Part shown: positions 9,001 through 57,193 of the stretch, in pieces
How the letters are laid out: each line of letters starts with the position of its first letter
Numbering within the stretch: position 1 is the first letter of the stretch
Source: Naegleria gruberi
Taxonomy: Eukaryota
Strand: one strand, 5' to 3'
DNA length: 64,000 bases
Assembly (NCBI GenBank): GCA_000004985.1
Contig: GG738935.1
Made by a program: the position numbers and the translations under genes
The notes under the pieces: generated by a model
What the model saw: the letters and a program-made list of their open reading frames with translations, nothing else
Database searches by the model: none
Told to the model about the DNA's origin: nothing

Positions 9001-10588
9001 AATTGCTGTATCTTATTATCTTGTGAGAATGGAACCATTTACTAGAATTTTCTTTGAATTCAATGATGGAAAATTGGATTTACCAGATAGAACATTCCAC
9101 TCCTTAAAGAAATCTTGGGAATTATCATCAGGAGAAACTCAATCCAAATCAGATTTCAAAGAACTTACTCCAGAATTCTTCTACTTGCCAGAATTTTTAC
9201 AAAACAGAAATCGTATTGATTTTGGTATTTTACAAAATGATAAGAGTTTTGATGATGTAGAATTACCACCTTGGGCTAATGGTGATCCTGTTTTATTTAT
9301 TAGAAAGCATAGAAAAGCTCTTGAATCTGACTATGTTTCTCGTAATTTACATCACTGGATTGATTTAATATTTGGTTACAAACAACGTGGAGAATCTGCT
9401 ATTAACAGTTACAATGTATTCCATTACATGACTTATGAAGGTTCTCTAACTGATGAAGTTGATTTAATTGATGATCCAATTACAAGAGAAGCCAGATGGA
9501 CTCAAATCTGTACCTATGGTCAAACTCCAAAACAATTATTCAAAAAAGCTCACCCTGAACGTTATGCTACAACTAATCTTATGGGAGGTGAAGAAGATAC
9601 TATCAATGTCATTCCAATTACAAATTACATTTTCAAAGTTGCAAATGAATTATCTCCTGGAAATATTAGAATATTCAAAGAACCTGTTGCTGATATTTAT
9701 ATTAGAAATGATCAAACAACTCACAATAATAGTGTTATTGCTGTTGGAAAGTATAAGATTTTCATTCCTCCAAGTGGACAAGAACGTAGAAATTCACCTG
9801 TTTATCTATCTTATAGACATTGGGATAAAACATTGAGAATTGAAAAGTGGGATAATGGAAAGCAATTACACATCTTCCACTTTATGAATCAACCTGAAAT
9901 TTACAAATGTGCCAAATTCTCACGTGAAGGTGATATGCTAGTTGTTGGTACTAATATTGGAGCATTGCACGTTTTTAGAGTTAACAATAGAATTAAGATT
10001 CACAATAAGAATACTCCAGATACAACAAATGTTAATACTGATAAGGATAACAAATTCTTGGACCATGTTGCAACTCTGAGTGGTCATTCTGATAGTGTTT
10101 TATGTGTTGCCATCTCAACTGAATTTTCAATGATTATTAGTGGTTCTCGTGATTCTTGTATGATGATTTGGGATTTGAATAGATTTAGATTTGTTAAATC
10201 AATTAAGCATGATGGTAAAGTCACGTGCATTGCCACTTCACCAACAACAGGTGATATTGCCTCATTCTGTCAAAACAATGTAAATGGACAAAATCACTTG
10301 TATTTATGGACTGTTAATGGTGATTTGATTTCATATTGCAACATTAGAGCAAAGATTACATGTATGAAATTCACCTGGATGGATGAAGGTATCAATCAAA
10401 ATGTTCTTGTTTGTGGTTTGGCCAATGGTACTATTGCTATATTGGATGCTTTAGGTTTGAAGGTTATTTCTAAACTCAAAATTACTGACTATACTTCACC
10501 AATTAGATCAATTGAAATTAACTCTCCAATGACAGAGATTGTTGCTGGTGACGACAGAGGTTTTGTTGTGAGTTGGTACAAGAAATAA
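2..10588 (+). CDS. BEACH-domain protein with C-terminal WD40 repeats (LvsA/neurobeachin/LYST-like). 5' partial: the reading frame is open from the window edge. No introns in 10.5 kb.
   Basis: 3522-aa continuous ORF. Canonical BEACH domain (WVEGTISNFEYLMHLNILAGRSFNDLTQYPVFPFIL...HYGSHYSTPIAVSYYLVRMEPFT...WIDLIFGYKQRGE..NVFHYMTYEG) at about nt 8700-9560. A PH-like region precedes it and WD40 repeats follow (about nt 9860-10560). Stop TAA at 10586-10588. The track start at 20 is TTG; the frame is open upstream to the window edge, so the N-terminus lies outside the window. Confidence 0.9.
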   Translation, partial: SPIQERLAEYIQVYYTYSTSSEQYKIREVLTTEDTNPCIILSNLLLQISKKSVNVFVEVFQWTSLWKIVIDIFKNLSKFDEERMNIEHFIQFCNFTSLSFGNMFLHASKDIRKLIELSSSKVFMEMMQYLEQFVNSAENESKKFKTLEKVAILYVIEIYVWGLFTSLHLIPNLLIEFQHCDGYDLLKKVFYAINNSEKSESSQDCFLLQFQQQKMLTILHVMINLVLELTTHIQLVNQEEAIQEQLGKCKRNQHVFGLLVYLYNHTDMSKIGSDFLCKRELLDHLLSNLTLFHEEYFKILYNSEPFKYICENFTSTSKEMQIQVLKTFDHYIQLFTLLDSSNETQVDENLICRDFNEYLKLLLTNHDMFLDSIMRVCNHLISKIQDKSIYHKIQLLFRNSGFTKLILQSIDIKQRNNQVMAKLVQLIYLFLEGNLDNHKDFMGQLTPKSNPLYKLLYDEELIGETLPVIKMIVVNDKSQTWDFIISDLLEIMFINNLDESSFNSMYSNIHQSHNSSVKFCEKHLRMCEKILCCIRKMFLENENVKNSFRKCKGYEKIINLLVLNSTNLECYDLVFSIVQSCINLLILSMNENSDNEIYFKKFITFSSLLSPLHKCGFVKSYEHGINLTMNLLQFSVMDYGLYEPNNSDRFRKLIEEKVLLFENPEMIPEVILKLYGRNLSEIDPKLSNFLVDMLFRLVKYSTNRHRLSRAKSLLILMKEFTTVLLEPSHYLSNRITKLLMLLGAHNFSPREMQYYFTLFTPDRLNTIIQSSNNNGNSLTSTTNSNSFISILNSSGNSGSNSNSNSTEMIASSPLPILPSTKTINNLLKTLLELGEQTFIPNYYIDFSPLNKDKVFRYDDLTQLKSKRLRLFSSSSSKMAHDREERILLKRTLNTFSSILFPKMNYSSWPSEKGHTTTLWFRIESNSNSKISLFSFSSHVNSMVFNVSMTPDMKLNIEMERTNEKLEWTETFSNYEFKLYQWYFIGINQQLIQLQDKIEHKFGLFVNGFHVQEVVHQESIDKSIMDMFKSFLSFSQTSLEFIVMGSNAYDMSKTVNQTMKSVNKRSGSLKSTLSINTSNIASNSSTSVGLHIPSPINNNNTTNNLLLNSARSSSSSLSSNTAPVHGHNANVTAQSPSDEDNSALANQQEKLFTCPAFQLGNMFFIEECLNDEEMYMMYHLGPNYMGNFDEDLSQYFCNEMINEESVVKFKNKIYYMKDCSNNVGLSQLTNRFVFAFSSVDASLITRIAQQSQSNSLDSVDIVFSNNKKKKMASSNTSSSSSSTSNSSSKVAATPSDSNASTPMSVGSPTPSPSTVTASSSSNSNNTASSDASSSSSSGSGSGSGSSSNSNVVYNVSDIRSYIPNRNYNNANALNYQKTTNFTSIKCYLSGKTTLVSKCTFKGNLYVIGGMKAILGLYAKMKDPSSKIYTLLLLSYLMKNNSLNTSEMLRLGGYDMLNYHFLSSKDSQFEITPSVLLALLVMCGLDIPNDVIVNSVNLKVRDICKRGVINNFMAFEKLLLDYRIWHTNAKVDTLKKMLKCLAELVSSSFRSKVNEHHRAILLTTANGVKRLLFAMSQSYVVGEKIDWPIKIINPTIKILKCIIPTPISMTYVYPIVQYIILTHHQDYAQWMNENNMNNNYMPQLTTTTTIGTSEDGSNNHLDSHYGNVEIIEPRKSVLNMFYNLIEEAPEDVLEDFHSVLPTGQIIALLNTKSNLIRCILLKMLGVYLSRKETLKDQFIKSNAAHLLTLQLLEVGNPSLLEFQVMFDLMLGLFNNNTTTAAAADYSNDYIASPVKTRRNSIILSSGATSGGIDSIDDLLELGEGDDDKTALQRTSLFLPTSISHAAFLLPKSTSGSCSSNGRDSSDSSPTKKRSRSVYFKSMNAATIASSPTNTNTALNSTATSSSSSSTTSGKSLHIPSSSDSPMGFTNYNTTPKGSSSSRYITTNRLKNSISLIKYEFSQFEFREFLTPILRLIPCIKDIEEKINVFETICRLFKNGGEKLKLYFYEIKAHWYIQVYLSNLPKDNPHTKKFIKLTLDFIIDYVNYSILNIPKQYLGQYGLKGSVEILTNILQYLLVMEKSSYDIIFIQNMQRYILQGVLAFFQKNYLFHEKSKTLKKDKQLQKKEKKIKGHLSAVFISFCTCATDYIIQWFDLPPEPPVTNEETTTGKISMMGSSAIAQKYGNISGTRRNITRMFDDSSNNSLNTTTGSHTLKTSTSMIFEKQHIEDESPTVQSESNNTEDNPQLSQFKNVQFIDNYVGTDDTTQTKTVKIQQDQAWDQRSLSSKIFHNYERTLSQDASSSSEEEEGNDSTLFSHNIHDISGFIYWFIDSIRKCLVIQKKGSSKSSRTGSFYDENQDFTPITTPEFILVEQLKRIFMFLLDSKRSKPDHIFTLLQLLYFFPFHSELIIHDLLQEPPGYQEMVNCGKLLKSFCSDTKYITRLLFRTANLFDKTDTILPQLNRKVWKVIISTCKDYLKKNIFPKTFDPNDPDFVSMVEEASTVSENISSLIFEPSVIDQVREWESNEFSTFNSKLTAVTEVILKSEESDKKKDSNIRKNLRNEQTQLELNKIKYMKPHMLKLKSIKDTDLQARKQWKMLVKFIQEDVSSFNVYFHTTNSYCDKTIKTRSTITTTRSHVTKENDYHRLSFSPYDDETFENVDYKLDSTSGPNRVRMRMKRQLKKRPFNIDEFQSETQLTNVQSSQKKRSVKFSEITTVHGGNGSNTNLNNSQDDDEVTSSSTTTTTTLNENSYHLSISTIILEPKKCKRITPLRITEGDLILGEDGVYFIASCSYPLTIRTNSSSTNHSKQLEMKKTYNFSYEEIREIHNRRYLLKNNALEFFLLNGKSFFFAFDDGETRDRVLSILSSPSSRFNYLSLTPNLNLLNLVNYEEEVNGKLIFKKSITQKWVEGTISNFEYLMHLNILAGRSFNDLTQYPVFPFILRDYDSKELDLSDPNTFRDLKKPMGALNEKRLEKIIQQYENLKDVEDQIPYHYGSHYSTPIAVSYYLVRMEPFTRIFFEFNDGKLDLPDRTFHSLKKSWELSSGETQSKSDFKELTPEFFYLPEFLQNRNRIDFGILQNDKSFDDVELPPWANGDPVLFIRKHRKALESDYVSRNLHHWIDLIFGYKQRGESAINSYNVFHYMTYEGSLTDEVDLIDDPITREARWTQICTYGQTPKQLFKKAHPERYATTNLMGGEEDTINVIPITNYIFKVANELSPGNIRIFKEPVADIYIRNDQTTHNNSVIAVGKYKIFIPPSGQERRNSPVYLSYRHWDKTLRIEKWDNGKQLHIFHFMNQPEIYKCAKFSREGDMLVVGTNIGALHVFRVNNRIKIHNKNTPDTTNVNTDKDNKFLDHVATLSGHSDSVLCVAISTEFSMIISGSRDSCMMIWDLNRFRFVKSIKHDGKVTCIATSPTTGDIASFCQNNVNGQNHLYLWTVNGDLISYCNIRAKITCMKFTWMDEGINQNVLVCGLANGTIAILDALGLKVISKLKITDYTSPIRSIEINSPMTEIVAGDDRGFVVSWYKK
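4001..4038 (+). repeat. (AGT/GGT/GGC)n microsatellite encoding an SSSGSGSGSGSSS tract inside the BEACH CDS; part of a 200-nt Ser/Thr/Asn-rich low-complexity segment (3820-4040).
   Basis: agtagtagtggtagtggtagtggcagtggcagtagtagc read directly; the frame is preserved. Confidence 0.8.
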
Positions 10589-47501: not shown

Positions 47502-49121
47502 TTAATTCATACGAATGATTTTGAAAACAATAGCAATACCAACAATTTGAATTATCAAGATAATTACGAATGGTAAATCTATAAATATTTCCCTAGATTC
47601 ATTCAAAACAAAAGAGAATAATAATGGAGCAATAGCCCTGCCAATAATTGATATAGAACCCAAACATCCATTAAGTGTGCCTTGTTCCTCTGGTTTGTTA
47701 AATATTGATATAATCAAGCTAGTTCTTAAAGCATCCTCTTTAGCACCAATAAGCAATAGCAGCATTCCAAAATAAATTAAATCTCCACTCGGACACAGAA
47801 TGAAATAAAGGGATAATAGGGCAGTGAAAATACAAGTCAGTAAGAGAGCATGCTTTTCACTATTCCTAGAAATTTTCAAAATCAGCTTTGACAATAAGGA
47901 ATTTGACAAAATTGCACAAAGCCCCAAAATTGTGAGTAAATAACCATTGTCACTAGGTGTGAAATGGTACTTATACCTAGTAAATTGAGTAATTGTGGAA
48001 AAGAATGCAAATGATGAAATTGTACTCAATAGTTTTGTAATAATTAGAAAAATTAAAACCTTTTCACCAGAAAATAATATCTTAACAATATATTTAAATG
48101 GAAAAACAAGTTGATCGAAAATAGTAGTGTTACTCTTTCCGTTAGATTGAGTAACATGTTCATGTAAATATTTAAAAAGTACAAAGGTCGAAAATAGTGA
48201 CACTAGTAAAATTAATCCGAATACAGTAGCAATATCCATAAATTTTAAAACTAGTGCACTGATTATTGATCCAATAGTTGTTGAAAGTCCCATAATAGCA
48301 ACTACATATGAAAATAAATTAGATAAATTTCCAAATATTCCAGAATCCTTATTACTTTCACTATTACTATAATGATAATTTGAAATTAATGAATTGATTA
48401 ATGGAATAATATCCAAGGCAAATCCTTGAATCACACATGCGATTGCATACAGAACTATACTATTCTTTTTTATCCAAACAATCGGAGAAATCAATTCTTC
48501 ATCTTTCCAAGAAATCAATCCAGAAAGAGTCAAATAAATAATAAATATCACATTGTAAAGTATTGAAAATATTATCAAAAACCTCTTCTTTCCATACTTG
48601 TCCGATAAGTTTCCCACAATTGGACTAATACAAAAGAATATCAAACATGGAAATGAATTAAAAAAACCAAACATAAACGTTGCAAAATGTGAATCTCCAT
48701 ATGCTGCTATATAAACTCTTTCAAAAAGCTCAAAAGCAATAGGATTCAACAATCCAAAGGTAAGAAAATACAAAAACAAGTAAAAGTACAATATGCAATA
48801 ATCTTTAACACTTGTTGTATTACCTTCCAATGATGATGATGGTGTTCGATCCTTTGGCTGTTGTATTTTCACTAACATACAATCTCCTTCTCCTCCCGAT
48901 AATTGTTCTTCATCTTCATCATCATCAAGAAGAAGATTATTAATATTTTGTTCCTCATCCTTGTCATCTTCATGATGCAGTGCTTCCTCCGAGCGTGTTG
49001 CTTTTACCTGTTGATGTTGATGATTATGGATGGGTTTCTCTTCATCCAAATCAGGCATTTTTTTTGTACAAACAACTTGCAAATTACCCAAATTTTCAGA
49101 TAATGAAATATTTGCATGCAT
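47502..49121 (-). CDS. Major facilitator superfamily transporter (HIAT1/MFSD14- or TetA-like), about 12 TM.
   Basis: MFS loop 2-3 signature PIVGNLSDKYGKKRFLIIF (G.LsD..GR.) plus about 12 hydrophobic segments. The N-terminus is acidic and His-rich. The first ATG at 49121 is MHANISL; a second ATG (MPDLDEEK) in A-rich context may be the real start. Confidence 0.6.
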   Translation of the reverse strand: MHANISLSENLGNLQVVCTKKMPDLDEEKPIHNHQHQQVKATRSEEALHHEDDKDEEQNINNLLLDDDEDEEQLSGGEGDCMLVKIQQPKDRTPSSSLEGNTTSVKDYCILYFYLFLYFLTFGLLNPIAFELFERVYIAAYGDSHFATFMFGFFNSFPCLIFFCISPIVGNLSDKYGKKRFLIIFSILYNVIFIIYLTLSGLISWKDEELISPIVWIKKNSIVLYAIACVIQGFALDIIPLINSLISNYHYSNSESNKDSGIFGNLSNLFSYVVAIMGLSTTIGSIISALVLKFMDIATVFGLILLVSLFSTFVLFKYLHEHVTQSNGKSNTTIFDQLVFPFKYIVKILFSGEKVLIFLIITKLLSTISSFAFFSTITQFTRYKYHFTPSDNGYLLTILGLCAILSNSLLSKLILKISRNSEKHALLLTCIFTALLSLYFILCPSGDLIYFGMLLLLIGAKEDALRTSLIISIFNKPEEQGTLNGCLGSISIIGRAIAPLLFSFVLNESREIFIDLPFVIILIIQIVGIAIVFKIIRMN

Positions 49122-49241: not shown

Positions 49242-49576
49242 TTAGTTTGAAAAAAACTGGTCCATAGAGGGAAGAGTTTCAAAAACGACATGCTGAACTC
49301 GAGAATGATATTCTCTCATTAATTCTGTGTTAACTAACTTTTCATTTGAATTTTGATAAATATTGTAAAAGAATTTCAAATTCTTCAATAATTTATGAGA
49401 AATCGCATTGGTTGTAGAATCAAGATCTGATTGTTCCATAACAAATTTCCCTCAATTTCTTGTAAATAATTCAAAATTTCTTCTCTTGACAAATCTTTTA
49501 AATTTTGATTGTAAATAAAGAAATTTCCAAATTCGGTAAATTTCTGATTTGCCTTTTGTTGCTCCAATTCATACAT
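49242..49576 (-). CDS. Possible small gene of about 120 aa, split into two overlapping track ORFs by a 1-nt frame shift, lying between the cyclase-like gene and the MFS gene. Doubtful.
   Basis: MYELEQQKANQKF...EGNLLWNN then frame +1 ..DLDSTTNAISHKLLKNLKFFYNIYQ..SMDQFFSN. No intron signal explains the shift. Confidence 0.2.
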
Positions 49577-49584
49577 CCATTCTA

Positions 49585-51603
49585 TTAGAATTTGATTAGA
49601 AAATAGTTGAAATTCGCAAACTTACCATCACCTTCTATTGCCTTTTCCTTATTAATTTCAAAAACAATAGACGAAACTCCATTCGAATTTTCATCCGAAT
49701 CTAGTAACAGCTTATCAACTGGTCGATACACAAAATGATGTTTCGTATTCTCGTTCAATGTACTCTCATCACAAACAATGTTACAATGTAGCGAAGAAGC
49801 AAGTAAGGATAATTTCTCTGCATTCGAAGGAACATTTCCAACAATAGTAAATATACGAAACGAATGAGTTCCCAAATTTCCTGAATTGCTCTTTCCAGAA
49901 CTAACGCCAATAGAGCATTGAATATGGGATTGAGAAGTTTTGTTGATTGTAGAAATGAGCTTTCTCAGTTTCAAAGCAGCTTCTAAGGCAAGAATATTCG
50001 AAGACTTTCTTCCAATTCCATCCGAAACATAAATTTGATAGTCATCGACTGTTATTACTTGTAAGTCGCCTTGAATATTCTTTGCAATGACTGTCATTCC
50101 AGAAATAATCTTTGCAAACAAGTTTCCAACATCAACACTATTCAACTCTTTCGAATATTTCTCAAGTTTCACCCTAATGACTGAGCATTGTTTTCTATTC
50201 AACCCTATCTTAAACAAAGAATTACTCGTCTCTTGGATTTTCGAAATCATTGATGAGTTTGATTCCAAAACTCCATCATGTTGAGATTCTAATTCTGATG
50301 AAGCTTCATGTTTAGTTTGACTTTCTACACCATTTTTCTCAAGTTCAATACATCGTAATTGAAGGAAAACACTCTCTGGTATGAATGTTTTAATTTCATT
50401 CAGCCAAACTGTCATTTCATAAAGATACATATAAATTGTGTCAACTTCTGAAAATTTGCTTCCTGAAATGTTAACATTTTCAAGTTCCATAGTTTTGATT
50501 TTTCTAAACTCTTTTTCTAGAATTGTAAATGGATGAGTGACAGTATGGCTTATCAAAATTGACATTATAACACCAAATATGATAATGAGAATGGTGATAC
50601 CAACAGAAACTCCAGAAGTTATATTCGAAACTAGCTCAATTTCCTTCTTCTCAACCACAACAAAGACATTCCACTTTAGGTTGACTAAAGAAAAGTCCAA
50701 TTTCACAACAAAATGATTTTCCACTTCGAAAAACGATGGAGCTGCTTCCCAACTACCAAATTTCTTAAAAGAACTTTCTAATACGAATCCAGCATCCGAA
50801 TCTATCAAATCAAAAATAGAAACTCTAGAGAAACCATCCAAAGCAGTAGTGTTGATATTCCCTCCAATAACCATATTGTTTGTTTCTGCCACAATTACAA
50901 AACCATTTTTCAAAACGTCAACTGTCTTGAGAAATGTCTGAATAATTCTTAATGAAATATTTGTCTTGGCAAATCCAACTACCTGCTTCACACCCATCAT
51001 GTATAAACTTGGTTCAAACAGTTTAACACAATAATAGGTCGTGTAACTTGGATTTCCTGGAATTGCATATGGAATTCCAAAAGCTCCGTCAAGATTTTTG
51101 AAATTGGATAAAGTGACAGTCCAATAACTTTGTGAGATTGTTTCATAGTTCGGGCTTTTAGTGACCATTTTAGTTGAAGTGATATTTGGTGATTGGGTGT
51201 TTAGTCCAATTGCATATAGAACTTTCTCGTCTATTGGTTTCGTATACCAAACTGGAAACTCGCCACCAATTAGTCCAAAAACATTAACACTATTGAGCGA
51301 ATCATTGAAAAATAAACCAATACCGTAAGGTTTGAATCTAATAAACATTTTGTGCAAATACGAAAGTGATGGAATCTTTGGAATAATCTGCAAATTGAAG
51401 TCATCAGCAATAGATTCAGTTGCTGCAATATATGGTCTCAATTGACCATCCATATAATGTAAAACTGAATCTCCAACACTTGACATGAGCTCAAATGACA
51501 TGAAACTCATTGCTTCCCTTGATCCAACAAATGAAGTCAACCAGATCATGAGAGAACAGGTCAATAACAATGTGGTGATGAGAATAATGATAAATGTGCG
51601 CAC
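49585..51603 (-). CDS. Receptor-type nucleotide cyclase-like protein: signal/TM N-terminus, Cache-like ectodomain of about 300 aa, single TM, and a C-terminal class-III cyclase-homology domain with degenerate catalytic motifs.
   Basis: N-terminal hydrophobic RTFIIILITTLLLTCSLMIWLTSFVGS (the track start is GTG; an ATG 30 nt upstream is in another frame, so the start is uncertain). Ectodomain with Cache-like segments (YYCVKLFEPSLYMMGVKQVVGFAKTNISLRII). TM ITSGVSVGITILIIIFGVIMSILI. The C-terminal QCSVIRVKLEKYS....VIAKNIQGDLQVITVDDYQIYV....IQCSIGVSSGKSNSGNLG..FRIFTIVGNVPSNAEKL follows the CHD pattern (..VTILF.DIVGFT....VK.IGDAYM....GIH.G.VVAGVIG......Y...GDTVN.ASRM), but GDAYM is DDYQI and the terminal GD.VN is GN.VP, so it may be a pseudo-cyclase. 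Confidence 0.45.
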   Translation of the reverse strand: MRTFIIILITTLLLTCSLMIWLTSFVGSREAMSFMSFELMSSVGDSVLHYMDGQLRPYIAATESIADDFNLQIIPKIPSLSYLHKMFIRFKPYGIGLFFNDSLNSVNVFGLIGGEFPVWYTKPIDEKVLYAIGLNTQSPNITSTKMVTKSPNYETISQSYWTVTLSNFKNLDGAFGIPYAIPGNPSYTTYYCVKLFEPSLYMMGVKQVVGFAKTNISLRIIQTFLKTVDVLKNGFVIVAETNNMVIGGNINTTALDGFSRVSIFDLIDSDAGFVLESSFKKFGSWEAAPSFFEVENHFVVKLDFSLVNLKWNVFVVVEKKEIELVSNITSGVSVGITILIIIFGVIMSILISHTVTHPFTILEKEFRKIKTMELENVNISGSKFSEVDTIYMYLYEMTVWLNEIKTFIPESVFLQLRCIELEKNGVESQTKHEASSELESQHDGVLESNSSMISKIQETSNSLFKIGLNRKQCSVIRVKLEKYSKELNSVDVGNLFAKIISGMTVIAKNIQGDLQVITVDDYQIYVSDGIGRKSSNILALEAALKLRKLISTINKTSQSHIQCSIGVSSGKSNSGNLGTHSFRIFTIVGNVPSNAEKLSLLASSLHCNIVCDESTLNENTKHHFVYRPVDKLLLDSDENSNGVSSIVFEINKEKAIEGDGKFANFNYFLIKF

Positions 51604-52611
51604 AGAAATGATTCCACCACATTTTGTTTTTTGGATGGGTTTGATAACTGATCTTTCTTCTACAATAGTTTCATCATTCTAATAGAAATGGTGGAATGTT
51701 ATTGGAAATATGTCTTAGAACAAACCTTTTGGAATGAATCAATAGGTTGAATTTTCATTCTTTTTTTGATCTTGTGTGAGTTCATTACCATTGCTATTCG
51801 AAAGTTTAGAATGCAATTTGAAATAATGAATTTGGTGATAGATTCGAAAGACTGCTTGTGATTGAGGTGGTTTCAATTCAAATCATCACTAATTTAAGAA
51901 TAACTGTTTGCCTGATAAGAGCTCTAGTTCATTTTCCATCTCTTTCGAATATATTATTCGATTCAATCCCATCTCTCTTCCAAACATATTGTTTTCATTC
52001 ACTATAAACAATCAAAGTTTCTTCATCATAATTTTTAAAAGAACCTCATTTCATTTAATACGAATCTGATTCAAACTTGTTGCACCTCTCAACAGGTCAA
52101 ACTAAAGAACAGTAATAATAAAGGGAGCCTGAATCCAAGCGTTTTAAACAATGTAAAGATCCATTAGACAAGCTTTGAAAGGTTCCTAATGGCAATATGA
52201 ATTAGAGAAAGTAATGATGCTAAGGAATTAATGATGCCACTCTTGATTTGCTTGGGAAGATGAAGTATGAACTTTATAACTCAAGTATTATCATGATAAT
52301 TAGAGAGTGATAATGTGCGTGATAAGCTTTCTGTTGGGTTCATCCTTTTCAATCAACATTGTCTCGATTGGAAAGTTTTGTCTACACAAGATAGATCCAT
52401 ACCAGTTTAATTAAACTCATTTACAATATTATTGTAATCTTACCAATTATTATCAAGACAATATGACCAATACAACAGAACATGAGAGGATACCGGCATA
52501 TTCTTGAAACACACATTTCTTTTCCAATTTGCACGTTGAATAGTGATTTTCCTTTAAATTTCAACAACTATTTCATTTCTATTCTAAACATTCTGAAAAA
52601 ATTAAACAATA

Positions 52612-52940
52612 TGAATAAGATTTCTTTCTGTATTGTCCTTGCTTTGGTTCTCTTGCTTGCTTGTGCTGTTAGTGCTCAACAACAAGAAAAATCATCCAAC
52701 TCGGTTTCTCTTTTGAGAGATATTATTCGTAGAATGTATCCAAATGCCTCTGATAGTCAAATTGTCAAGAAATTGTTCCCAAGTGTTAGAAAGTTGAAGA
52801 AGAAGGCAAGTGATAAGTTGCTTAATTTGATTTCTTCTTTGAGTGATTCACAAGGATCTGATTGTTCAAAGTATTGTGCTGGAAGTACTGGAGATTACAA
52901 GATTTCATGCTTGCAACATTGTCACCGTAATAATTTGTAA
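52612..52940 (+). CDS. Small secreted protein (109 aa) with signal peptide and a C-terminal 4-Cys module (CSKYCAG...CLQHC).
   Basis: Start moved to the ATG at 52612 (MNKISFCIVLALVLLLACAVSAQQQE). A basic K-rich middle precedes the Cys module. It is convergent with the large receptor gene, 95 bp away. Confidence 0.45.
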
Positions 52941-53035: not shown

Positions 53036-56000
53036 TTAGATAGACATTCCAACCTTTGAGGTGAATTTTTCTCGTTCTGATTTCAATTTTTGCCAAGAGG
53101 TATAATCTTTAGAAACTCCAAATCTTGAGTAGGTATCAGAAAGGTTTAGTACAATGTCGCTTTTTAAAGTGTCCAAAGCTGTTAAAAATTCTGATTGTGA
53201 AGCTTGTTTTTCAAATAGAGATATGAATAGTTTTCTGGTAGGATTTGGAATATTGACTTCAAGGGGACTAGATGCACTCAAATATTTATCGCGGAAAGCT
53301 GAACAATCTTTGATAAGATTGGAAGATGTGTTGAGTTCCAAAATTTCATTGTAACATTTCAGATTCTCAAGGGAGAATTCTTTTGTACAAAAATTTTCGA
53401 ATAATTTGGCACCCAATTCATCACTCAATAATTCTACTAATTCTTGAGTAGCATCCTGTTCCTTCTTGACTGAATTTCTGTAATTTTTAAAGTAGAAAAT
53501 GAGTGACAATCCTCCAAATACGAAAATGTACAACACAAAGTAAACTACTGTGAGAATCAATCTGATAATTTCCATAATTAATGAGATTTCAAAGGTTGAA
53601 ACAGTAGTACTCAACTTGGTGCTGTAATTTGAAGTAAAAAGCCCAAGATTTACAATACCGAATACATAGGAAGATACCAATACTAACAGACATATAATGA
53701 ATAGTAGAGTTTCAGATCTGAATAAAAGTGGATCGTCCATGATAAAGAATCTATAACCGTTCGATGAGTATTCCTTGACCAGCTTCACAGCCTCTTCAAC
53801 TGAAATTATGTCCTTCTTATCTTTTCGACTTGGAACATCTTGCAATTCCACAGTTGACTCTTTCAATCCACTATAGGAACCAGCTTTAGATTTGTTCATT
53901 TTCATGTATCTGTTATAACTCAAAATCAAATCCAAAACGAACATGACAGAAAGAGCTACCAATGCAAGAACTAATATAGCTCCAATAAAACTGGAGGTAG
54001 CTATCGTATAGATTTTAGAGGTTAGTCCAGAAGAGTTGTCAATTACCTCTTGTGAAATTCTAGCAGCTGCCATTCCTCCCATGTAGAGGAAGATGAATAC
54101 AAAGAGTAAAAGAACAGAAACAATGTAAATACCTTTAGAGGTGATGATATTCAACAATTGGAGAGATTTTGTTTCTGATCTTTGCAATAGGGAATACATA
54201 TTTCTGAGGAGATGATATCTTGTAGTTTGAATTAAAAAGGAGAGAACACTAATGCTGAGAGCTACTCCCAAAATGGTAGAAGAAATGTAGGTCAATGAGT
54301 TGAGTGCTATTGGAGAGTAATCAGATCCTGAAACAGAATATCCAAGCATGACAGCGCTTTTTGTGACACTTCCCAAAAGAGCGTCCAAGAAAATGCATAC
54401 CATTCCAATGAAAGGAGCAACATATTTAGCTTTGATTGGCTGCTGATTTCTGTAAATGAATAGCAAAATGAGCATGACCAAACTAACAATGCAGATAATA
54501 AACCCAATACCTATTTGGAATCCCCACAACACGTGATAGGCAGTCTTTTGCTCAGAGGTATAGTTTTTGATATTTGACAAATCTTGGCTTAGTTCTACAA
54601 ATACAGCAAATTGAGTTGTGTGGTATGCCTTCATATTAATCGAGTAGTAAATTGTTCCATTGACATCTTTTGTTGAGTAGCTGCTGACAGTACATCCATT
54701 TGTTCTCCAATCCGATACTGTTTCATTCCAATATCTACAAGTAATATTCTCCATGGAAATGTTGTTAGTTTTGAGAATTGAATCCAAACTAGATGCTTCT
54801 ACCTCAAAGTTCAATGAAATTGGATCTGAAAGATCTGAAAGTGGAAAATATTCTCCGCCATTATCAATACATCTCAAAGACAATACGTTACTGACAATTT
54901 GTGAGCTGTTATCTTGATTCTTGTCGGAATTTGGATTCTCACTGTAGAGCACATATTCTGTACCAAATAGATCAGAATCGCTCACTGCTTGCTTCTTTCC
55001 TTGAACCACAGTTCCTGGCGGAACAGTTATGGCATTTGAGCTACCCATGACCACCTCACTACTGTTATAAGTCGATCCATAATCTTTTCTAACAATGAAG
55101 GTCAACTTGTCAGTGATGAGAGTTTTTTCCTCTGAAGGTGAAATGGAATCCACAATTGAAGCTGAAAGTAATTTGATAGAACTGATAAGCTTTGACCTAA
55201 TGGATTGGTTGATTTGGATTATATTGGATAAGGAAGAGCATACACTAGAAATGAATGAGGAGTCAATTCTACCCAATGGTTGATTTTTAGAACTTTCTCC
55301 TGTGAATGAGTTGGATCTTGCATCAATTCTAATAATGTTAACAAACTTTTGAATTCCACTCACAATGTCACTCTCCATATCGATGGCCATTGTTGACAGA
55401 TATTGAGTCGCATTGAAAGACCACATTTCCAAAATTTTAGCTGCAACCATGATATTCGAAACTGCCTTTGAATATTCAGTCTTGTTATTTGGATTAGTGA
55501 TTGGTGTTTCAATAGTGTTCAACAATGAAATAAACACTCCAAATGCTGATCTCTGAATGAGGTCAATATATTTTGGATCACCTCCATCATAGGCTTTCTG
55601 TACCATTCCCATGAGTGATTTGATTTGAAACGAATCGACGGTACCCTGAATAACTCTATTCCTTAAATTTTCCATGAATGGATAAACAGAATCGAGAGGA
55701 ACTGGACAAACACACATTCCACCACTCAAAACAAACACCCTATTCAATCCATAATATCTATCATAAACGAATAGCACTGGATTTTGTCTATATTCCAATG
55801 GTGCATTATCCAAAATCATTGTATTATTAAAATGTTCTGCATTTCTTAGAGAAAATCCTGGAGGAAGGTAGGATTTGTGTAGCTTGCTGGAAGAATATGG
55901 TGTAATCTGAACTACATATTGTGAAAGTTCAGAATTTGGAATGTCAGCCATTCCTGATTTAATGACAACATCTGAACCACCTGTCAAACGAGTAGCAAGT

Positions 56001-57193
56001 TTTGCATTCACATAACCAAAGGCAAACATCAAGTTGGAATCTGCTGGAGTATTAGATTGATCGTCATACACAAATGGTGCTGTGACATTGAAGGTGAATT
56101 CTATTGTCATCTTTTCCACAAGTGGTGAAATTGAAAATACTGAATTAAATTGAGCAAATTGAGGGAAAAATCTTTTTGGTGTTTTCAAATAAATATCATT
56201 CGATCTTCCAATCATGATTGAAGTAGCACTTGTGCTATTCCACCATTTGGCAACACATGAAATTCTATAAACAGAGTCAAAATCAAAATCTGCATCTTCT
56301 GAGAAGGTCAACATGGAAATTCCCAATTGATTGGTTTGCTCTCTATCCTGAAGATAGTTAGTGACTTTCTCATAATTTCCCAACGTATTCTTAATCAAAC
56401 TAGTCTTTGAAAGAGAGCTTTTCATTTCCATTGTTTTATCACTTATTTTCACAATGTCCCAATTATATCTAATATTGGCATTTGAATTTTTCAATTTAGT
56501 ATTCAACTTGGCATTGATAAAAAAACTCTTCTTCATTGGCATGAATCTTTCACCTGTTTGTGAATCGATAGCTGGCTCGGGAAGCATTGGATTCATGGTT
56601 GAAAACGAAGGCATAGACAAATTTAGAGCCATCATTGAGTATCCACTCGTCAGAACAGTGTCCGTTCGATTTGTATTAAAAACATCAATCTCAATTTGTG
56701 ACAGAACTGGATTTGCCACTCCCAACACTGAACTCAGCACATTTAATAAAACTCCAGATTGCAATCCCATATTCACAACAAAAGTTCCCTCTATAAATTG
56801 TGCTGTTTTTGGTGATACTTTCACTGTGACTGTTTGTGAGAGCAGATCAACAGTCGGCAAATCACATGTGAAAAATTCCACTAAACTTGTTGAATTTGAC
56901 AAGAGTGGTGACACCAAAACTCCACAATTTATCACCTGGAATGTAGGTAGCAAGGGAATTGTCTGAAGACCTATTATTTGTGTCTTGATATAAAAATAGG
57001 GCGTTGTAGTAGTGGTCTGATATCGGTTCGTGCCAGAGATTGTGGCCGATGGATAAGAGATGAGAAAAGTTTTAGGTGTGGTTGAGTAGATAAAGTTAAA
57101 AATTGATGTTTGGAACGCGAGGATTGTTTGTGAGAAACTGCAACAACCCAATAAGAGGAGAAGAATGATGGCAGTTGCCAGTTTAGATGACAT
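53036..57193 (-). CDS. Giant receptor (1385 aa): signal peptide, 830-aa ectodomain ending in a GPS/GAIN-like motif, 7 TM helices, and a C-terminal RGS domain (adhesion-GPCR-like with an RGS fusion).
   Basis: ATG complement of 57191-57193 (MSSKLATAIILLLLLGCCSFSQT), immediately 3' of a 50-N gap. GPS-like CRYWNETVSDWRTNGC...YYSINMKAYHTTQFAVFVE (compare C..W.....W...GC......HL|T.FAVLM) at about nt 54600-54750. Seven hydrophobic helices between nt 53500 and 54560, with a roughly 90-aa ICL3. The RGS box ELVELLSDELGAKLFENFCTKEFSLENLKCYNEILELN...FRDKYLSASSPLEVNIP at about nt 53080-53430 matches the RGS consensus (F..FL..EFSEENL.FW.....Y). Confidence 0.6.
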   Translation of the reverse strand: MSSKLATAIILLLLLGCCSFSQTILAFQTSIFNFIYSTTPKTFLISYPSATISGTNRYQTTTTTPYFYIKTQIIGLQTIPLLPTFQVINCGVLVSPLLSNSTSLVEFFTCDLPTVDLLSQTVTVKVSPKTAQFIEGTFVVNMGLQSGVLLNVLSSVLGVANPVLSQIEIDVFNTNRTDTVLTSGYSMMALNLSMPSFSTMNPMLPEPAIDSQTGERFMPMKKSFFINAKLNTKLKNSNANIRYNWDIVKISDKTMEMKSSLSKTSLIKNTLGNYEKVTNYLQDREQTNQLGISMLTFSEDADFDFDSVYRISCVAKWWNSTSATSIMIGRSNDIYLKTPKRFFPQFAQFNSVFSISPLVEKMTIEFTFNVTAPFVYDDQSNTPADSNLMFAFGYVNAKLATRLTGGSDVVIKSGMADIPNSELSQYVVQITPYSSSKLHKSYLPPGFSLRNAEHFNNTMILDNAPLEYRQNPVLFVYDRYYGLNRVFVLSGGMCVCPVPLDSVYPFMENLRNRVIQGTVDSFQIKSLMGMVQKAYDGGDPKYIDLIQRSAFGVFISLLNTIETPITNPNNKTEYSKAVSNIMVAAKILEMWSFNATQYLSTMAIDMESDIVSGIQKFVNIIRIDARSNSFTGESSKNQPLGRIDSSFISSVCSSLSNIIQINQSIRSKLISSIKLLSASIVDSISPSEEKTLITDKLTFIVRKDYGSTYNSSEVVMGSSNAITVPPGTVVQGKKQAVSDSDLFGTEYVLYSENPNSDKNQDNSSQIVSNVLSLRCIDNGGEYFPLSDLSDPISLNFEVEASSLDSILKTNNISMENITCRYWNETVSDWRTNGCTVSSYSTKDVNGTIYYSINMKAYHTTQFAVFVELSQDLSNIKNYTSEQKTAYHVLWGFQIGIGFIICIVSLVMLILLFIYRNQQPIKAKYVAPFIGMVCIFLDALLGSVTKSAVMLGYSVSGSDYSPIALNSLTYISSTILGVALSISVLSFLIQTTRYHLLRNMYSLLQRSETKSLQLLNIITSKGIYIVSVLLLFVFIFLYMGGMAAARISQEVIDNSSGLTSKIYTIATSSFIGAILVLALVALSVMFVLDLILSYNRYMKMNKSKAGSYSGLKESTVELQDVPSRKDKKDIISVEEAVKLVKEYSSNGYRFFIMDDPLLFRSETLLFIICLLVLVSSYVFGIVNLGLFTSNYSTKLSTTVSTFEISLIMEIIRLILTVVYFVLYIFVFGGLSLIFYFKNYRNSVKKEQDATQELVELLSDELGAKLFENFCTKEFSLENLKCYNEILELNTSSNLIKDCSAFRDKYLSASSPLEVNIPNPTRKLFISLFEKQASQSEFLTALDTLKSDIVLNLSDTYSRFGVSKDYTSWQKLKSEREKFTSKVGMSI

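What the first reader, a model, noticed from the sequence alone, without database searches (positions are those of the whole stretch)
49585..51603. Receptor-type cyclase-like gene with a Cache-like ectodomain and degenerate catalytic motifs (possible pseudo-cyclase)
The topology is that of a receptor adenylyl/guanylyl cyclase: N-terminal signal, about 300 aa extracellular, one TM, then a C-terminal class-III cyclase-homology domain. The metal- and substrate-binding signatures are altered: GDAYM is ITVDDYQIYV, and the GDTVN segment is GNVPS. The ectodomain has Cache-like features (MGVKQVVGFAKTNISLRII). A Cache-coupled and possibly catalytically dead cyclase would be a distinct sensor type. The start codon is also ambiguous, since an ATG 30 nt upstream is out of frame.
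Basis: partly seen in the sequence, partly recalled or inferred. Interest (0 to 1): 0.55.

Follow-up and report, generated by a model that had tools for sequence, protein, structure and literature searches.

The report
Cache receptor with dead cyclase domain
This is a three-exon gene of a Naegleria-like amoeba for a membrane receptor with a bacterial-style Cache ligand sensor outside the cell and, inside, a domain that keeps the fold of a cAMP/cGMP-making enzyme but lacks most residues needed for catalysis; it belongs to a large family of such receptors that I could not find described.

Summary
The ORF at 49585-51603 (minus strand) is real, but it is only the middle exon of a larger gene. The model is exon 1 at 51758-51726, a 47-nt intron, exon 2 at 51678-49626, a 44-nt intron, then exon 3 from 49581. 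The window comes from a heterolobosean amoeba; the best named homologue is from N. gruberi (61% identity).

The protein has a short cytoplasmic N-terminus, TM1, a dCache ectodomain of about 300 aa and TM2. After TM2 come a HAMP-like helix pair, a cyclase-transducer-like helix and a disordered linker of about 45 aa. The C-terminal part is a class III cyclase-homology domain (CHD), a conserved DEWMYEL motif and a helical tail.

None of 120 representative relatives keeps more than 3 of the 6, yet the gene is under purifying selection (dN/dS 0.18). Relatives with a homologous sensor and a canonical CHD also exist.

The window copy carries a 7-nt deletion that frameshifts the tail. The topology, the start codon and the claim of uniqueness need correction.

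The parts
51726..51758 (-). Exon 1: ATG plus 10 codons (MKIQPIDSFQK), the true start of the gene
   Evidence: The sequence ends in AAG|GTTTGT. The N-terminus matches the homologues MKVQP.../MPTKIQP.... It is identical in the second isolate L001.
51679..51725 (-). Intron 1 (47 nt, GTTTGT...TTCTATTAG)
   Evidence: The in-frame 'stop' TAG at 51681-51679 is the splice acceptor. A 1-nt indel between the isolates (47 versus 46 nt) is tolerated here only.
49626..51678 (-). Exon 2 (aa 12-695 plus the first base of codon 696).
   Evidence: tblastn of the spliced protein recovers 51687..49627.
51526..51600 (-). TM1 (aa 38-62), a signal-anchor helix preceded by about 37 cytoplasmic residues
   Evidence: Hydropathy scan. 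The alignment to homologues shows conserved cytoplasmic C-x-G-C/I-S residues before it. In the AF2 model it is a continuous helix running into the stalk helix.
50626..51525 (-). Extracellular dCache-type ligand-binding domain (aa 63-362) with five N-x-S/T sequons
   Evidence: Foldseek to PctC/PctA/Mlp24/Tlp1 dCache domains, E 1e-7 to 1e-5, TMt 0.6-0.72. Profile against PDB chemoreceptor ligand-binding domains, E=1.1e-5. Pfam dCache_1 sub-threshold. Sequons.
50542..50616 (-). TM2 (aa 366-390)
   Evidence: Hydropathy scan and AF2 helix.
50350..50541 (-). HAMP-like helix-connector-helix and cyclase-transducer-like helix (aa 391-454; THPFTILEKEF...SEVDTIYMYLYEMTVWLNEIKTFIPESVFLQLRC)
   Evidence: AF2 secondary structure. 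Family-wide near-invariant Pro7, Glu35, Phe56 and Pro58. Af1503 HAMP structures are hit only at E about 0.3, so HAMP identity is suggestive and not proven.
50224..50349 (-). Low-complexity, predicted disordered linker (aa 455-496) inserted between the transducer helix and the cyclase-homology domain
   Evidence: pLDDT is below 50 here. The distance from the Pro of FxPE to the Gly before strand beta1 is 59 aa here, and 39-120 aa (median 67) in 130 relatives. Canonical relatives have no such insert.
49636..50223 (-). Class III cyclase-homology domain (aa 497-692) with a degenerate active site
50167..50169 (-). Lys515 at the position of the first metal-binding Asp (strand beta1)
   Evidence: Alignments; codon AAA verified.
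50044..50058 (-). Val552 (position of the substrate-binding Lys) to Asp556 (second metal Asp, retained)
   Evidence: Alignments; codons verified.
49813..49848 (-). Thr622 (substrate Asp/Thr position), Ser629 (catalytic Asn position) and Lys633 (catalytic Arg position)
   Evidence: Alignments; codons verified.
49582..49625 (-). Intron 2 (44 nt, GTAAGT...TCTAATAG), phase 1, splitting codon Glu696 inside the DEWMYEL motif
   Evidence: It is identical in L001. The spliced product restores the DEWMYEL motif found in the homologues.
49385..49581 (-). Exon 3 as encoded in the window: EWMYELEQQKANQKF...EIEGNLL, then 17 frameshifted residues and TGA at 49387-49385
49436..49450 (-). Site of the 7-nt deletion (between two TTAT repeats) relative to isolate L001, which causes the frameshift
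49242..49441 (-). Remainder of exon 3 in the ancestral frame (MEQSDLDSTTNAISHKLL...FFSN, TAA at 49244-49242). It is still open and homologous to the family's C-terminal helical tail

Best explanation
The locus is a three-exon gene of a Naegleria-like heterolobosean. It encodes a two-pass membrane receptor of bacterial design.

Architecture (shown):
- An extracellular dCache domain sits between TM1 and TM2.
- A HAMP-like helix pair and a cyclase-transducer-like helix (FxPExV) follow TM2.
- After a disordered linker of about 45 aa comes a class III cyclase-homology domain (CHD).
- The CHD is followed by an almost invariant DEWMYEL helix and a helical, weakly TPR-like tail.

Catalytic status (substitutions shown; loss of activity inferred):
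- The CHD keeps the cyclase fold but has lost 4 of the 6 catalytic residues. The first metal-binding Asp is Lys, the substrate Lys is Val, the transition-state Asn is Ser and the Arg is Lys. It also lacks the VKGK phosphate-binding hairpin.
- It therefore cannot make cAMP or cGMP by the canonical two-metal mechanism, either as a homodimer or as either half of a heterodimer.
- The whole family shares this state while staying under purifying selection.

Mechanism (inferred):
- The CHD plus DEWMYEL/tail module is a non-enzymatic output or scaffold domain, that is, a pseudo-enzyme.
- Ligand binding to the Cache domain would be relayed through TM2 and the HAMP-like segment.
- The relay would change how the dimeric pseudo-cyclase/tail module binds a partner or a nucleotide.

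State of this copy (shown):
- The copy in this window has a 7-nt deletion that truncates the conserved tail.
For: Gene model:
- Splice sites and homologue N- and C-termini support the three-exon model.
- An indel between isolates is tolerated only in the intron.

dCache:
-.

CHD homology and fold:
-, and Pfam hits in 19 of 32 relatives.

Catalytic positions:
-.

Family-wide loss:
- 0 of 120 complete representatives keep more than 3 of the 6 residues.
- The Me1 position is Asp in only 3 of 130.
- The canonical beta1 motif and the GDxVNxAxR motif are each matched in only 2 of 155 sequences. These are three proteins in total. Two of them share only the sensor half, and the third matches the beta1 pattern about 400 residues N-terminal of its DEWMYE motif.

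Functional constraint:
- dN/dS is 0.18 (12 synonymous, 8 non-synonymous changes; P=2e-4) between two isolates.

The module as a unit:
- DEWMYE is found in 95 of 155 relatives, and Trp203 is invariant.
- A long linker is present in all 130 relatives with coverage.
- The same C-terminal module is attached to other N-terminal regions, for example ankyrin repeats.
- CHD and tail fold as one unit, with pTM 0.87.

Canonical counterparts:
- Relatives with a homologous sensor have an intact catalytic hexad and no linker: P0136 from Willaertia, and P0076 and P0147.
Against: - No biochemical data exist.
- Non-canonical class III cyclases with unusual substrate-binding residues are known to be active, so sequence alone cannot prove inactivity.
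- Asp556 (second metal site) and Thr622 are retained, and Lys633 is a conservative replacement of Arg.
- An output module reused behind many different sensors is what one expects of an enzyme.
- The proposed partner or nucleotide binding is pure inference. No partner is known.
- The full-length model of the window protein is of modest confidence (pLDDT 57), and HAMP identity is not established.
- The high-confidence CHD model is of the 61%-identical N. gruberi homologue, not of the window protein itself.
Confidence: 0.7

Rival explanations
1. It is an active, non-canonical or heterodimer-dependent cyclase. The degenerate CHD would pair with a canonical CHD from a paralogous dCache cyclase, as in mammalian C1/C2 or sGC alpha/beta, or it would use alternative residues, so the receptor would still signal through cAMP/cGMP.
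For: - Canonical dCache cyclases with a homologous sensor and HAMP half exist in the same lineage (P0136 from Willaertia). They could dimerise through the shared sensor and helical parts.
- Asp556 and Thr622 are retained and Arg is replaced by Lys.
- The fold and the dimer-arm GNxG motif are conserved.
- Public databases name family members 'adenylate cyclase'.
Against: - The protein could not supply a complete half-site of either kind. The metal-donor half needs both Asp residues (Me1 is Lys). The substrate half needs Lys, Asn and Arg (here Val, Ser, Lys).
- No relative among 120 has more than 3 of the 6 residues.
- The 39-120 aa disordered insert uncouples the CHD from the transducer helix.
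- No paralogue lies in the window.
Confidence: 0.15
2. The CHD is a regulatory nucleotide- or small-molecule-binding domain that binds without turnover, like the forskolin or pseudo-symmetric site of heterodimeric cyclases or the P. aeruginosa cyclase-like ATP-binding protein. Output would then depend on intracellular ligand occupancy rather than on a protein partner. This is a sub-variant of the pseudo-enzyme reading.
For: - The pocket-forming fold is retained and under constraint.
Against: - Pocket residues are highly variable across the family. The Me1 position is K/R/H/T/E/Y... and the Asn position is E/S/N/K/Q/D. This argues against one conserved ligand.
- The best-conserved residues lie outside the pocket: GNxG, RPVD and DEWMYE.
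Confidence: 0.2
3. The copy in this window is a dying gene (a recent pseudogene or null allele), or the frameshift is an assembly error. In either case the as-written C-terminus is not biologically meaningful.
For: - A 7-nt deletion between TTAT repeats at about 49442 shifts the frame. It replaces the last 68 residues of the conserved tail with 17 unrelated ones.
- The lost part contains family-conserved positions (columns 260, 266 and 292 of A4).
- Three substitutions cluster within 20 nt of the indel.
Against: - The rest of the gene shows purifying selection against the other isolate (dN/dS 0.18).
- Both introns and all upstream domains are intact.
- The old frame is still open to its original stop, so any inactivation is very recent.
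- Read data are not available to tell a real allele from an error.
Confidence: 0.3

Closest known systems
Bacterial-type dCache-(HAMP)-class III adenylate/guanylate cyclases. Examples: M. tuberculosis Rv2435c and N. gruberi D2VLR9/D2V3A4, listed by Upadhyay et al. 2016 (PMC4822843); Willaertia magna KAL9647366.1 (P0136)
   Same: - Two-TM topology with an extracellular dCache domain, a membrane-proximal helical relay and a C-terminal class III CHD.
- The sensor half is demonstrably homologous (family profile against P0136, P0076 and P0147 at E 1e-22 to 1e-34).
- The GN[FL]G and C/Y-R-x-[VIL]-D motifs are shared.
   Different: - Those proteins keep the full catalytic set (FxD, KYIGD, T, VNxxAR, VKGK) and pass Pfam PF00211 at 56-88 bits.
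- The window protein has K, V, D, T, S, K at the six positions and no VKGK.
- It scores below the Pfam threshold.
- It has a 39-120 aa disordered insert before the CHD, and a DEWMYEL motif plus helical tail after it.
P. aeruginosa CyaB catalytic domain (PDB 3r5g), a class IIIb adenylyl cyclase and the closest solved structure
   Different: CyaB has all the catalytic residues. Sequence identity is only about 14-16%.
Degenerate or non-catalytic cyclase-homology domains: the pseudo-symmetric site of mammalian AC C1/C2 and of sGC alpha/beta (established knowledge), and the P. aeruginosa cyclase-like ATP-binding protein 6yii
   Same: The cyclase fold is retained while catalytic residues are lost. 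6yii is retrieved by both the profile and the fold search.
   Different: - In C1/C2 and sGC each subunit still supplies a complete half of one active site. Here neither half is complete.
- 6yii is a soluble bacterial transcription-regulator module, not a Cache-coupled eukaryotic membrane receptor.
dCache ligand-binding domains of bacterial chemoreceptors and kinases (PctA/B/C, Mlp24/Mlp37, Tlp1, TlpQ, HK1S-Z)
   Same: A long stalk helix plus two stacked PAS-like modules between two TM helices.
   Different: - Sequence identity is only 9-13%.
- The output is a pseudo-cyclase rather than an MCP or kinase module.
- By eye, the Arg two residues before the conserved Trp of the amino-acid-binding motif is absent (QSYW). 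This rests on recalled knowledge of the motif and was not formally tested.

Membership tests
Class III nucleotidyl cyclase (catalytically competent adenylate/guanylate cyclase) | Cyclase-homology-domain fold and detectable sequence homology | tested here: met
Class III nucleotidyl cyclase (catalytically competent adenylate/guanylate cyclase) | Pfam PF00211 gathering score (21.9 bits) reached by the protein itself | tested here: not met
   20.6 and 20.2 bits, E about 4e-4. 19 of 32 family members match at E<=0.1, best 2.9e-11.
Class III nucleotidyl cyclase (catalytically competent adenylate/guanylate cyclase) | Two metal-binding aspartates (beta1 FxD and beta2-3 GD) | tested here: not met
   The first is Lys515 and the second, Asp556, is retained. 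Family-wide, the first position is Asp in only 3 of 130.
Class III nucleotidyl cyclase (catalytically competent adenylate/guanylate cyclase) | Substrate-defining Lys (or Glu) and Asp/Thr (or Cys) | tested here: not met
   The Lys position is Val552. The Asp/Thr position is Thr622, as in class IIIb.
Class III nucleotidyl cyclase (catalytically competent adenylate/guanylate cyclase) | Transition-state-stabilising Asn and Arg on helix alpha4 (GDxVNxAxR) | tested here: not met
   The sequence is GNVPSNAEK: Asn is replaced by Ser629 and Arg by Lys633. No N-x3-R occurs near this site in any of 125 relatives.
Class III nucleotidyl cyclase (catalytically competent adenylate/guanylate cyclase) | Measured cyclase activity | not testable with these tools
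   Needs an enzyme assay.
dCache_1 extracellular sensor domain | Long N-terminal helix followed by two PAS-like alpha/beta modules, located between two TM helices | tested here: met
   AF2 secondary structure (ectodomain blocks mostly pLDDT 65-89). Foldseek top 50 are almost all dCache domains, E down to 3e-7, TMt up to 0.72. TM helices.
dCache_1 extracellular sensor domain | Pfam PF02743 gathering score (45 bits) | tested here: not met
   The window protein scores 10.8 bits, E=0.35. 6 of 9 close relatives are sub-threshold, best E=8.9e-5. The sensor-homologous relative P0147 reaches 53.6 bits.
dCache_1 extracellular sensor domain | Sequence-profile similarity to solved dCache ligand-binding domains | tested here: met
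   The 16-sequence ectodomain profile hits chemoreceptor ligand-binding domains 6mni (E=1.1e-5) and 7w0w (E=9.2e-5), then Mlp24/37, 3c8c and 3li8 weakly.
dCache_1 extracellular sensor domain | Known ligand-binding motif (e.g. the amino-acid motif Y-R-W-Y-D) | not tested
   Visual inspection only. The invariant QSYW lacks the Arg two residues before the Trp. No formal alignment to PctA was made.
HAMP domain | Two amphipathic helices joined by a connector of about 14 residues directly after TM2, with a conserved Pro in helix 1 and Glu at the start of helix 2; recognisable by profile | tested here: inconclusive
   The helix-connector-helix is present in the AF2 model. Pro7 and Glu35 are near-invariant in 28 relatives. 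Six Af1503 HAMP entries are hit over positions 3-50, but only at E 0.28-1.2. There is no Pfam HAMP hit.
Unnamed discoban 'DEWMYEL' pseudo-cyclase receptor family (as defined here) | Degenerate CHD directly followed by a [DE]EW[ML]YE motif | tested here: met
   DEWMYEL is restored by splicing intron 2. The motif is present in 95 of 155 relatives and the Trp is invariant.
Unnamed discoban 'DEWMYEL' pseudo-cyclase receptor family (as defined here) | Long variable linker between the FxPE transducer helix and strand beta1 of the CHD | tested here: met
   59 aa here; 39-120 aa (median 67) in 130 relatives.
Unnamed discoban 'DEWMYEL' pseudo-cyclase receptor family (as defined here) | Complete C-terminal helical tail of about 110 aa | tested here: not met
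   In the window the tail is cut by the 7-nt frameshift. It is intact in isolate L001 and in all homologues.

The most novel reading that the evidence does not exclude
The CHD plus DEWMYEL/TPR-like module is a previously unrecognised, non-enzymatic signalling output domain. It would have been derived from a class IIIb cyclase and expanded across Discoba (Naegleria, Willaertia, Acrasis, Entosiphon) and some other protists. There it would couple bacterial-type extracellular sensors (dCache and others) to eukaryotic pathways through partner binding rather than cyclic nucleotides. This would be a 'pseudo-cyclase receptor' class analogous to pseudokinase receptors. It would also mean that the often-quoted cyclase counts for Naegleria genomes overstate the number of real enzymes.
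Probability: 0.45. Interest if true: 0.6.

Novelty: new variant of a known kind. Interest (0 to 1): 0.42.

Why it matters
- Naegleria genomes are repeatedly described as encoding about 80-100 or more adenylate/guanylate cyclases used for environmental sensing (e.g. PMC9928731). If a large block of these, at least 83 clusters at 50% identity, are catalytically dead, the size and logic of cyclic-nucleotide signalling in these amoebae need revising. This includes the pathogen N. fowleri, which has members of the family.
- The family would be a natural system for asking what a cyclase fold does when it no longer cyclises.
- The family also shows a bacterial Cache sensor being reused in a eukaryote with a new output.
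- For annotation, public records call these proteins 'adenylate cyclase' or 'guanylate cyclase domain-containing protein' without noting the missing catalytic residues.

Tried and rejected
- Single-exon reading with the GTG start or the ATG at 51622: rejected. The frame is open upstream to a splice acceptor, and the homologues extend N-terminally.
- Cleaved signal peptide plus a single TM: rejected in favour of TM1/TM2.
- My first hand alignment put the Lys and second-Asp positions one residue off (I553, D557). The HMM alignment to CyaB and a MAFFT alignment with canonical relatives corrected this to V552 and D556.
- Two of the three word-indexed homologue searches with alignments returned almost nothing.
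- The afdb50 fold library was unavailable.
- Exact-match look-ups of window proteins and of P0002 found no contigs, so species identity and synteny could not be checked.
- A search for the run accession ERR1078381 in the literature found nothing.
- Literature searches for a described pseudo-cyclase family, the DEWMYE motif or Naegleria cyclase catalytic residues found nothing relevant.
- HAMP could not be confirmed by profile.
- A short intron as the cause of the exon 3 frame change was considered by eye and rejected, because the only GT...AG pair there would give an intron of about 16 nt.
- No paralogue was found in the window.
Full report
**Source and context**

The window is AT-rich (GC about 0.32) and eukaryotic. 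Its large ORFs encode a BEACH-domain protein, STT3, an F-box protein, dymeclin/Hid1, a TLDc protein, an MFS transporter and a large receptor with a C-terminal RGS domain.

The target protein's relatives are from Naegleria gruberi (61% and 46% identity), N. lovaniensis and Willaertia magna. An assembled contig from run ERR1078381 (L001) is 98.3% identical in DNA over 2.9 kb. The source is therefore a Naegleria-like heterolobosean. I could not name the species, because the window's proteins are not on record.

**Checking the observation**

It is not the whole gene.

- *5' end.* Upstream of the GTG the frame stays open and encodes NDETIVEERSVIKPIQKTKCGGIISV, which aligns with the cytoplasmic N-termini of homologues. 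The frame 'ends' at a TAG within TTCTATTAG, a good 3' splice site. A donor, AAG|GTTTGT, lies 47 nt further up and is preceded by ATG AAA ATT CAA CCT (MKIQPIDSFQK). This matches MKVQP/MKVYP/MPTKIQP in the Willaertia and N. gruberi proteins. The only indel between the two isolates in this region is 1 nt inside this intron.
- *3' end.* The ORF's last 13 residues are read-through into a 44-nt GTAAGT...AATAG intron. Splicing joins ...AIEGD to EWMYELEQQKANQKF, a motif shared by all homologues.
- *Frameshift.* Exon 3 then changes frame. Relative to L001, the window lacks 7 nt (between two TTAT repeats, about 49442). As written, the protein is 760 aa and ends in 17 unrelated residues (stop at 49387-49385). 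With the 7 nt restored it is 810 aa and collinear with its homologues to the stop at 49244-49242.

Between the two isolates, exon 2 has 12 synonymous and 8 non-synonymous differences, giving dN/dS 0.18 (P=2e-4 against neutrality). The gene has therefore been under purifying selection.

**Anatomy (810-aa numbering)**

| Region | Residues | Evidence |
|---|---|---|
| Cytoplasmic N-terminus | 1-37 | |
| TM1 | 38-62 | |
| Ectodomain (dCache) | 63-362 | |
| TM2 | 366-390 | |
| HAMP-like pair and transducer-like helix | 391-454 | |
| Disordered linker | 455-496 | |
| Cyclase-homology domain | 497-692 | |
| DEWMYEL motif and helical tail | 695-810 | |

- *Ectodomain.* In the AlphaFold model of exon 2 (mean pLDDT 57, but mostly 65-89 in the ectodomain) it is a long helix followed by two alpha/beta modules.
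  - Foldseek against the PDB returns almost only dCache ligand-binding domains (PctC/PctA, Mlp24/37, Tlp1, TlpQ, HK1S-Z; E 1e-7 to 1e-5, target TM up to 0.72).
  - Independently, a 16-sequence ectodomain profile hits chemoreceptor ligand-binding domains at E=1.1e-5 and 9.2e-5.
  - Pfam dCache_1 gives sub-threshold hits in 6 of 9 relatives.
- *After TM2.* There is a helix-connector-helix with a near-invariant Pro and Glu, as in HAMP. Profile support is weak, with Af1503 HAMP hit only at E about 0.3. Next comes a helix with an invariant F-x-P-E-x-V motif. This resembles the 'LPxxVA' transducer element that immediately precedes canonical cyclase domains (established knowledge).
- *Linker.* A low-complexity, low-confidence stretch follows. 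The Pro of FxPE is 59 residues from the Gly before strand beta1. In 130 relatives the distance is 39-120 residues, median 67. Canonical relatives lack this insert.

**The cyclase-homology domain**

On its own the protein scores just under the Pfam threshold: 20.2-20.6 bits against 21.9. A profile of 26 diverse family members matches P. aeruginosa CyaB at E=2.1e-18 across the whole catalytic domain. It also matches sAC, OaPAC, Cya2, Rv1625c, mammalian ACs and GCs.

**Catalytic positions**

Three independent alignments agree: HMM against OaPAC, HMM against CyaB, and MAFFT with CyaB and three canonical relatives.

| Canonical role | Canonical residue | Window residue |
|---|---|---|
| First metal site (FxDIxGFT) | Asp | Lys515 |
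| Substrate binding (KxxGD) | Lys | Val552 |
| Second metal site | Asp | Asp556 (kept) |
| Substrate position | Asp/Thr | Thr622 |
| Transition state | Asn | Ser629 |
| Transition state | Arg | Lys633 |

The VKGK hairpin is replaced by an acidic loop. The protein therefore lacks both a complete metal-donor half and a complete substrate half of an active site.

**The family**

An exhaustive HMMER search of 1.84 billion representatives with the family profile found 2865 hits at E<=1e-3, 609 at E<=1e-10 and 83 at E<=1e-30.

- About 55-60 of the best 150 are full-length (dCache to tail).
- Many others share only the TM2-to-tail part, behind different N-termini such as ankyrin repeats.
- Named members come from N. 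fowleri, N. lovaniensis, N. gruberi, W. magna, Acrasis kona, the euglenozoan Entosiphon and the provoran Apiculatamorpha, plus metagenomes. Sources call them 'guanylate cyclase domain-containing protein', 'adenylate cyclase' or 'class 3 adenylate cyclase'.
- Among 120 representatives covering all six positions, none keeps more than three canonical residues and 102 keep zero or one. The first metal position is Asp in 3 of 130.
- An alignment-free motif scan finds the canonical beta1 motif and the GDxVNxAxR motif in only 2 of 155 sequences each. [DE]EW[ML]YE is in 95 of 155.
- The motif-positive sequences are three proteins in total. Two of them, P0076 and P0147, match the family only in the sensor half. 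The third, P0100, matches the beta1 pattern near its N-terminus, about 400 residues upstream of its DEWMYE motif.
- P0076, P0147 and Willaertia KAL9647366.1 (P0136) carry Pfam-significant, fully canonical class IIIb CHDs (56-88 bits) with no long linker and no DEWMYEL.

The pseudo-cyclase family therefore appears related to, and probably derived from, genuine dCache-class IIIb cyclases of the same lineage. This last step is an inference from shared motifs such as GN[FL]G and [CY]R-x-[VIL]-D; no tree was made.

**Mechanism**

*Shown:* the domain order, the cyclase fold, the substitutions, family-wide loss of the catalytic residues, purifying selection, and reuse of the module behind different N-termini.

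*Inferred:*
- The receptor dimerises like other dCache/HAMP/CHD proteins.
- Ligand binding outside is relayed through TM2 and the HAMP-like segment.
- Output is not cyclic-nucleotide synthesis but a change in how the CHD-DEWMYEL-tail module engages a partner or an intracellular ligand.

The tail gives weak TPR hits in several members, which is compatible with a protein-binding role. I put about 0.7 on 'non-catalytic pseudo-cyclase receptor'. Within that, I cannot decide between partner binding and nucleotide binding.

The active or heterodimeric cyclase rival (about 0.15) is weakened because neither half-site is complete. It is not excluded without an assay. Separately, there is a real chance (about 0.3) that this particular copy is a recent null allele or carries an assembly error, because of the 7-nt frameshift.

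**Comparison with what is known**

- Cache-coupled cyclases are known in bacteria, and two N. gruberi examples are tabulated by Upadhyay et al. 2016 (PMC4822843).
- Degenerate cyclase domains are known as the pseudo-symmetric halves of heterodimeric cyclases, and as a bacterial ATP-binding module (6yii).
- I found no description of a Cache-coupled, fully degenerate CHD family with a DEWMYEL/tail module. That literature library does not cover subscription journals, so absence is not proof.

I therefore class the locus as a new variant of a known kind. It works like a Cache/HAMP receptor on the input side. It is a structural member of the class III cyclase superfamily, but it fails the catalytic membership tests.

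**Verdict**

The gene boundaries, topology and start needed correction, and the feature is family-wide rather than unique. Interest is moderate (0.42). The finding is solid and has annotation consequences for Naegleria 'cyclase' counts, but function remains inferred.

Noticed in passing
window 53036-57193 (-): The neighbouring 1385-aa ORF has an N-terminal signal-like segment, a very large Ser/Thr/Asn-rich ectodomain, a multi-TM region and a C-terminal RGS domain (Pfam RGS, E=2e-9). It looks like a receptor-RGS fusion lying directly upstream of the pseudo-cyclase receptor gene.
   Followed up: partly
window 49423-49442 (-) versus L001 2827-2852: Besides the 7-nt indel, three substitutions cluster within 20 nt just downstream of it (49430, 49426, 49423). 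They change EQAGHDS to EQSDLDS in the old frame. This looks like a local mutational hotspot or a complex event.
   Followed up: partly
window 52103-52111 and 52250 (intergenic, upstream of the gene): The second isolate has about 12 extra nucleotides in three small insertions, plus one further 1-nt insertion. Indels are concentrated in the 5' intergenic region.
   Followed up: no
Public homologues P0002 (N. gruberi NAEGRDRAFT_80465), P0005 (N. lovaniensis C9374_012432), P0006 and P0009 (W. magna): The deposited gene models look faulty. P0002 starts inside the ectodomain and lacks TM1. P0005 and P0006 lack a conserved dCache segment. P0009 lacks TM2 and the first HAMP-like helix (alignment). Annotation of the family is unreliable.
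   Followed up: partly
window 47502-49121 (-): The downstream neighbour is an MFS transporter (Pfam MFS_1, E=1.6e-22). It has an acidic/His-rich low-complexity N-terminal extension of about 110 aa.
   Followed up: no
window 52482-52940 (+): A 152-aa ORF with an internal signal-like hydrophobic stretch and a Cys-rich C-terminus lies between the two receptor genes. It has no Pfam match. It may be a small secreted protein or may not be a gene.
   Followed up: no
window 20-10588 (+): A 3522-codon uninterrupted ORF encodes a BEACH/PH-BEACH/WD40 protein and is cut by the window start. An intron-free stretch this long is notable in a genome whose neighbouring gene has two introns of about 45 nt.
   Followed up: no
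Relatives P0055 and P0127 (metagenome; JGI name 'ankyrin repeat protein/class 3 adenylate cyclase'): In P0055 at least, N-terminal ankyrin repeats lie in front of the dCache domain and pseudo-cyclase module (Pfam). P0127 carries the same source name but was not scanned. Cytoplasmic ankyrin repeats ahead of TM1 are an unusual addition for a Cache receptor.
   Followed up: partly
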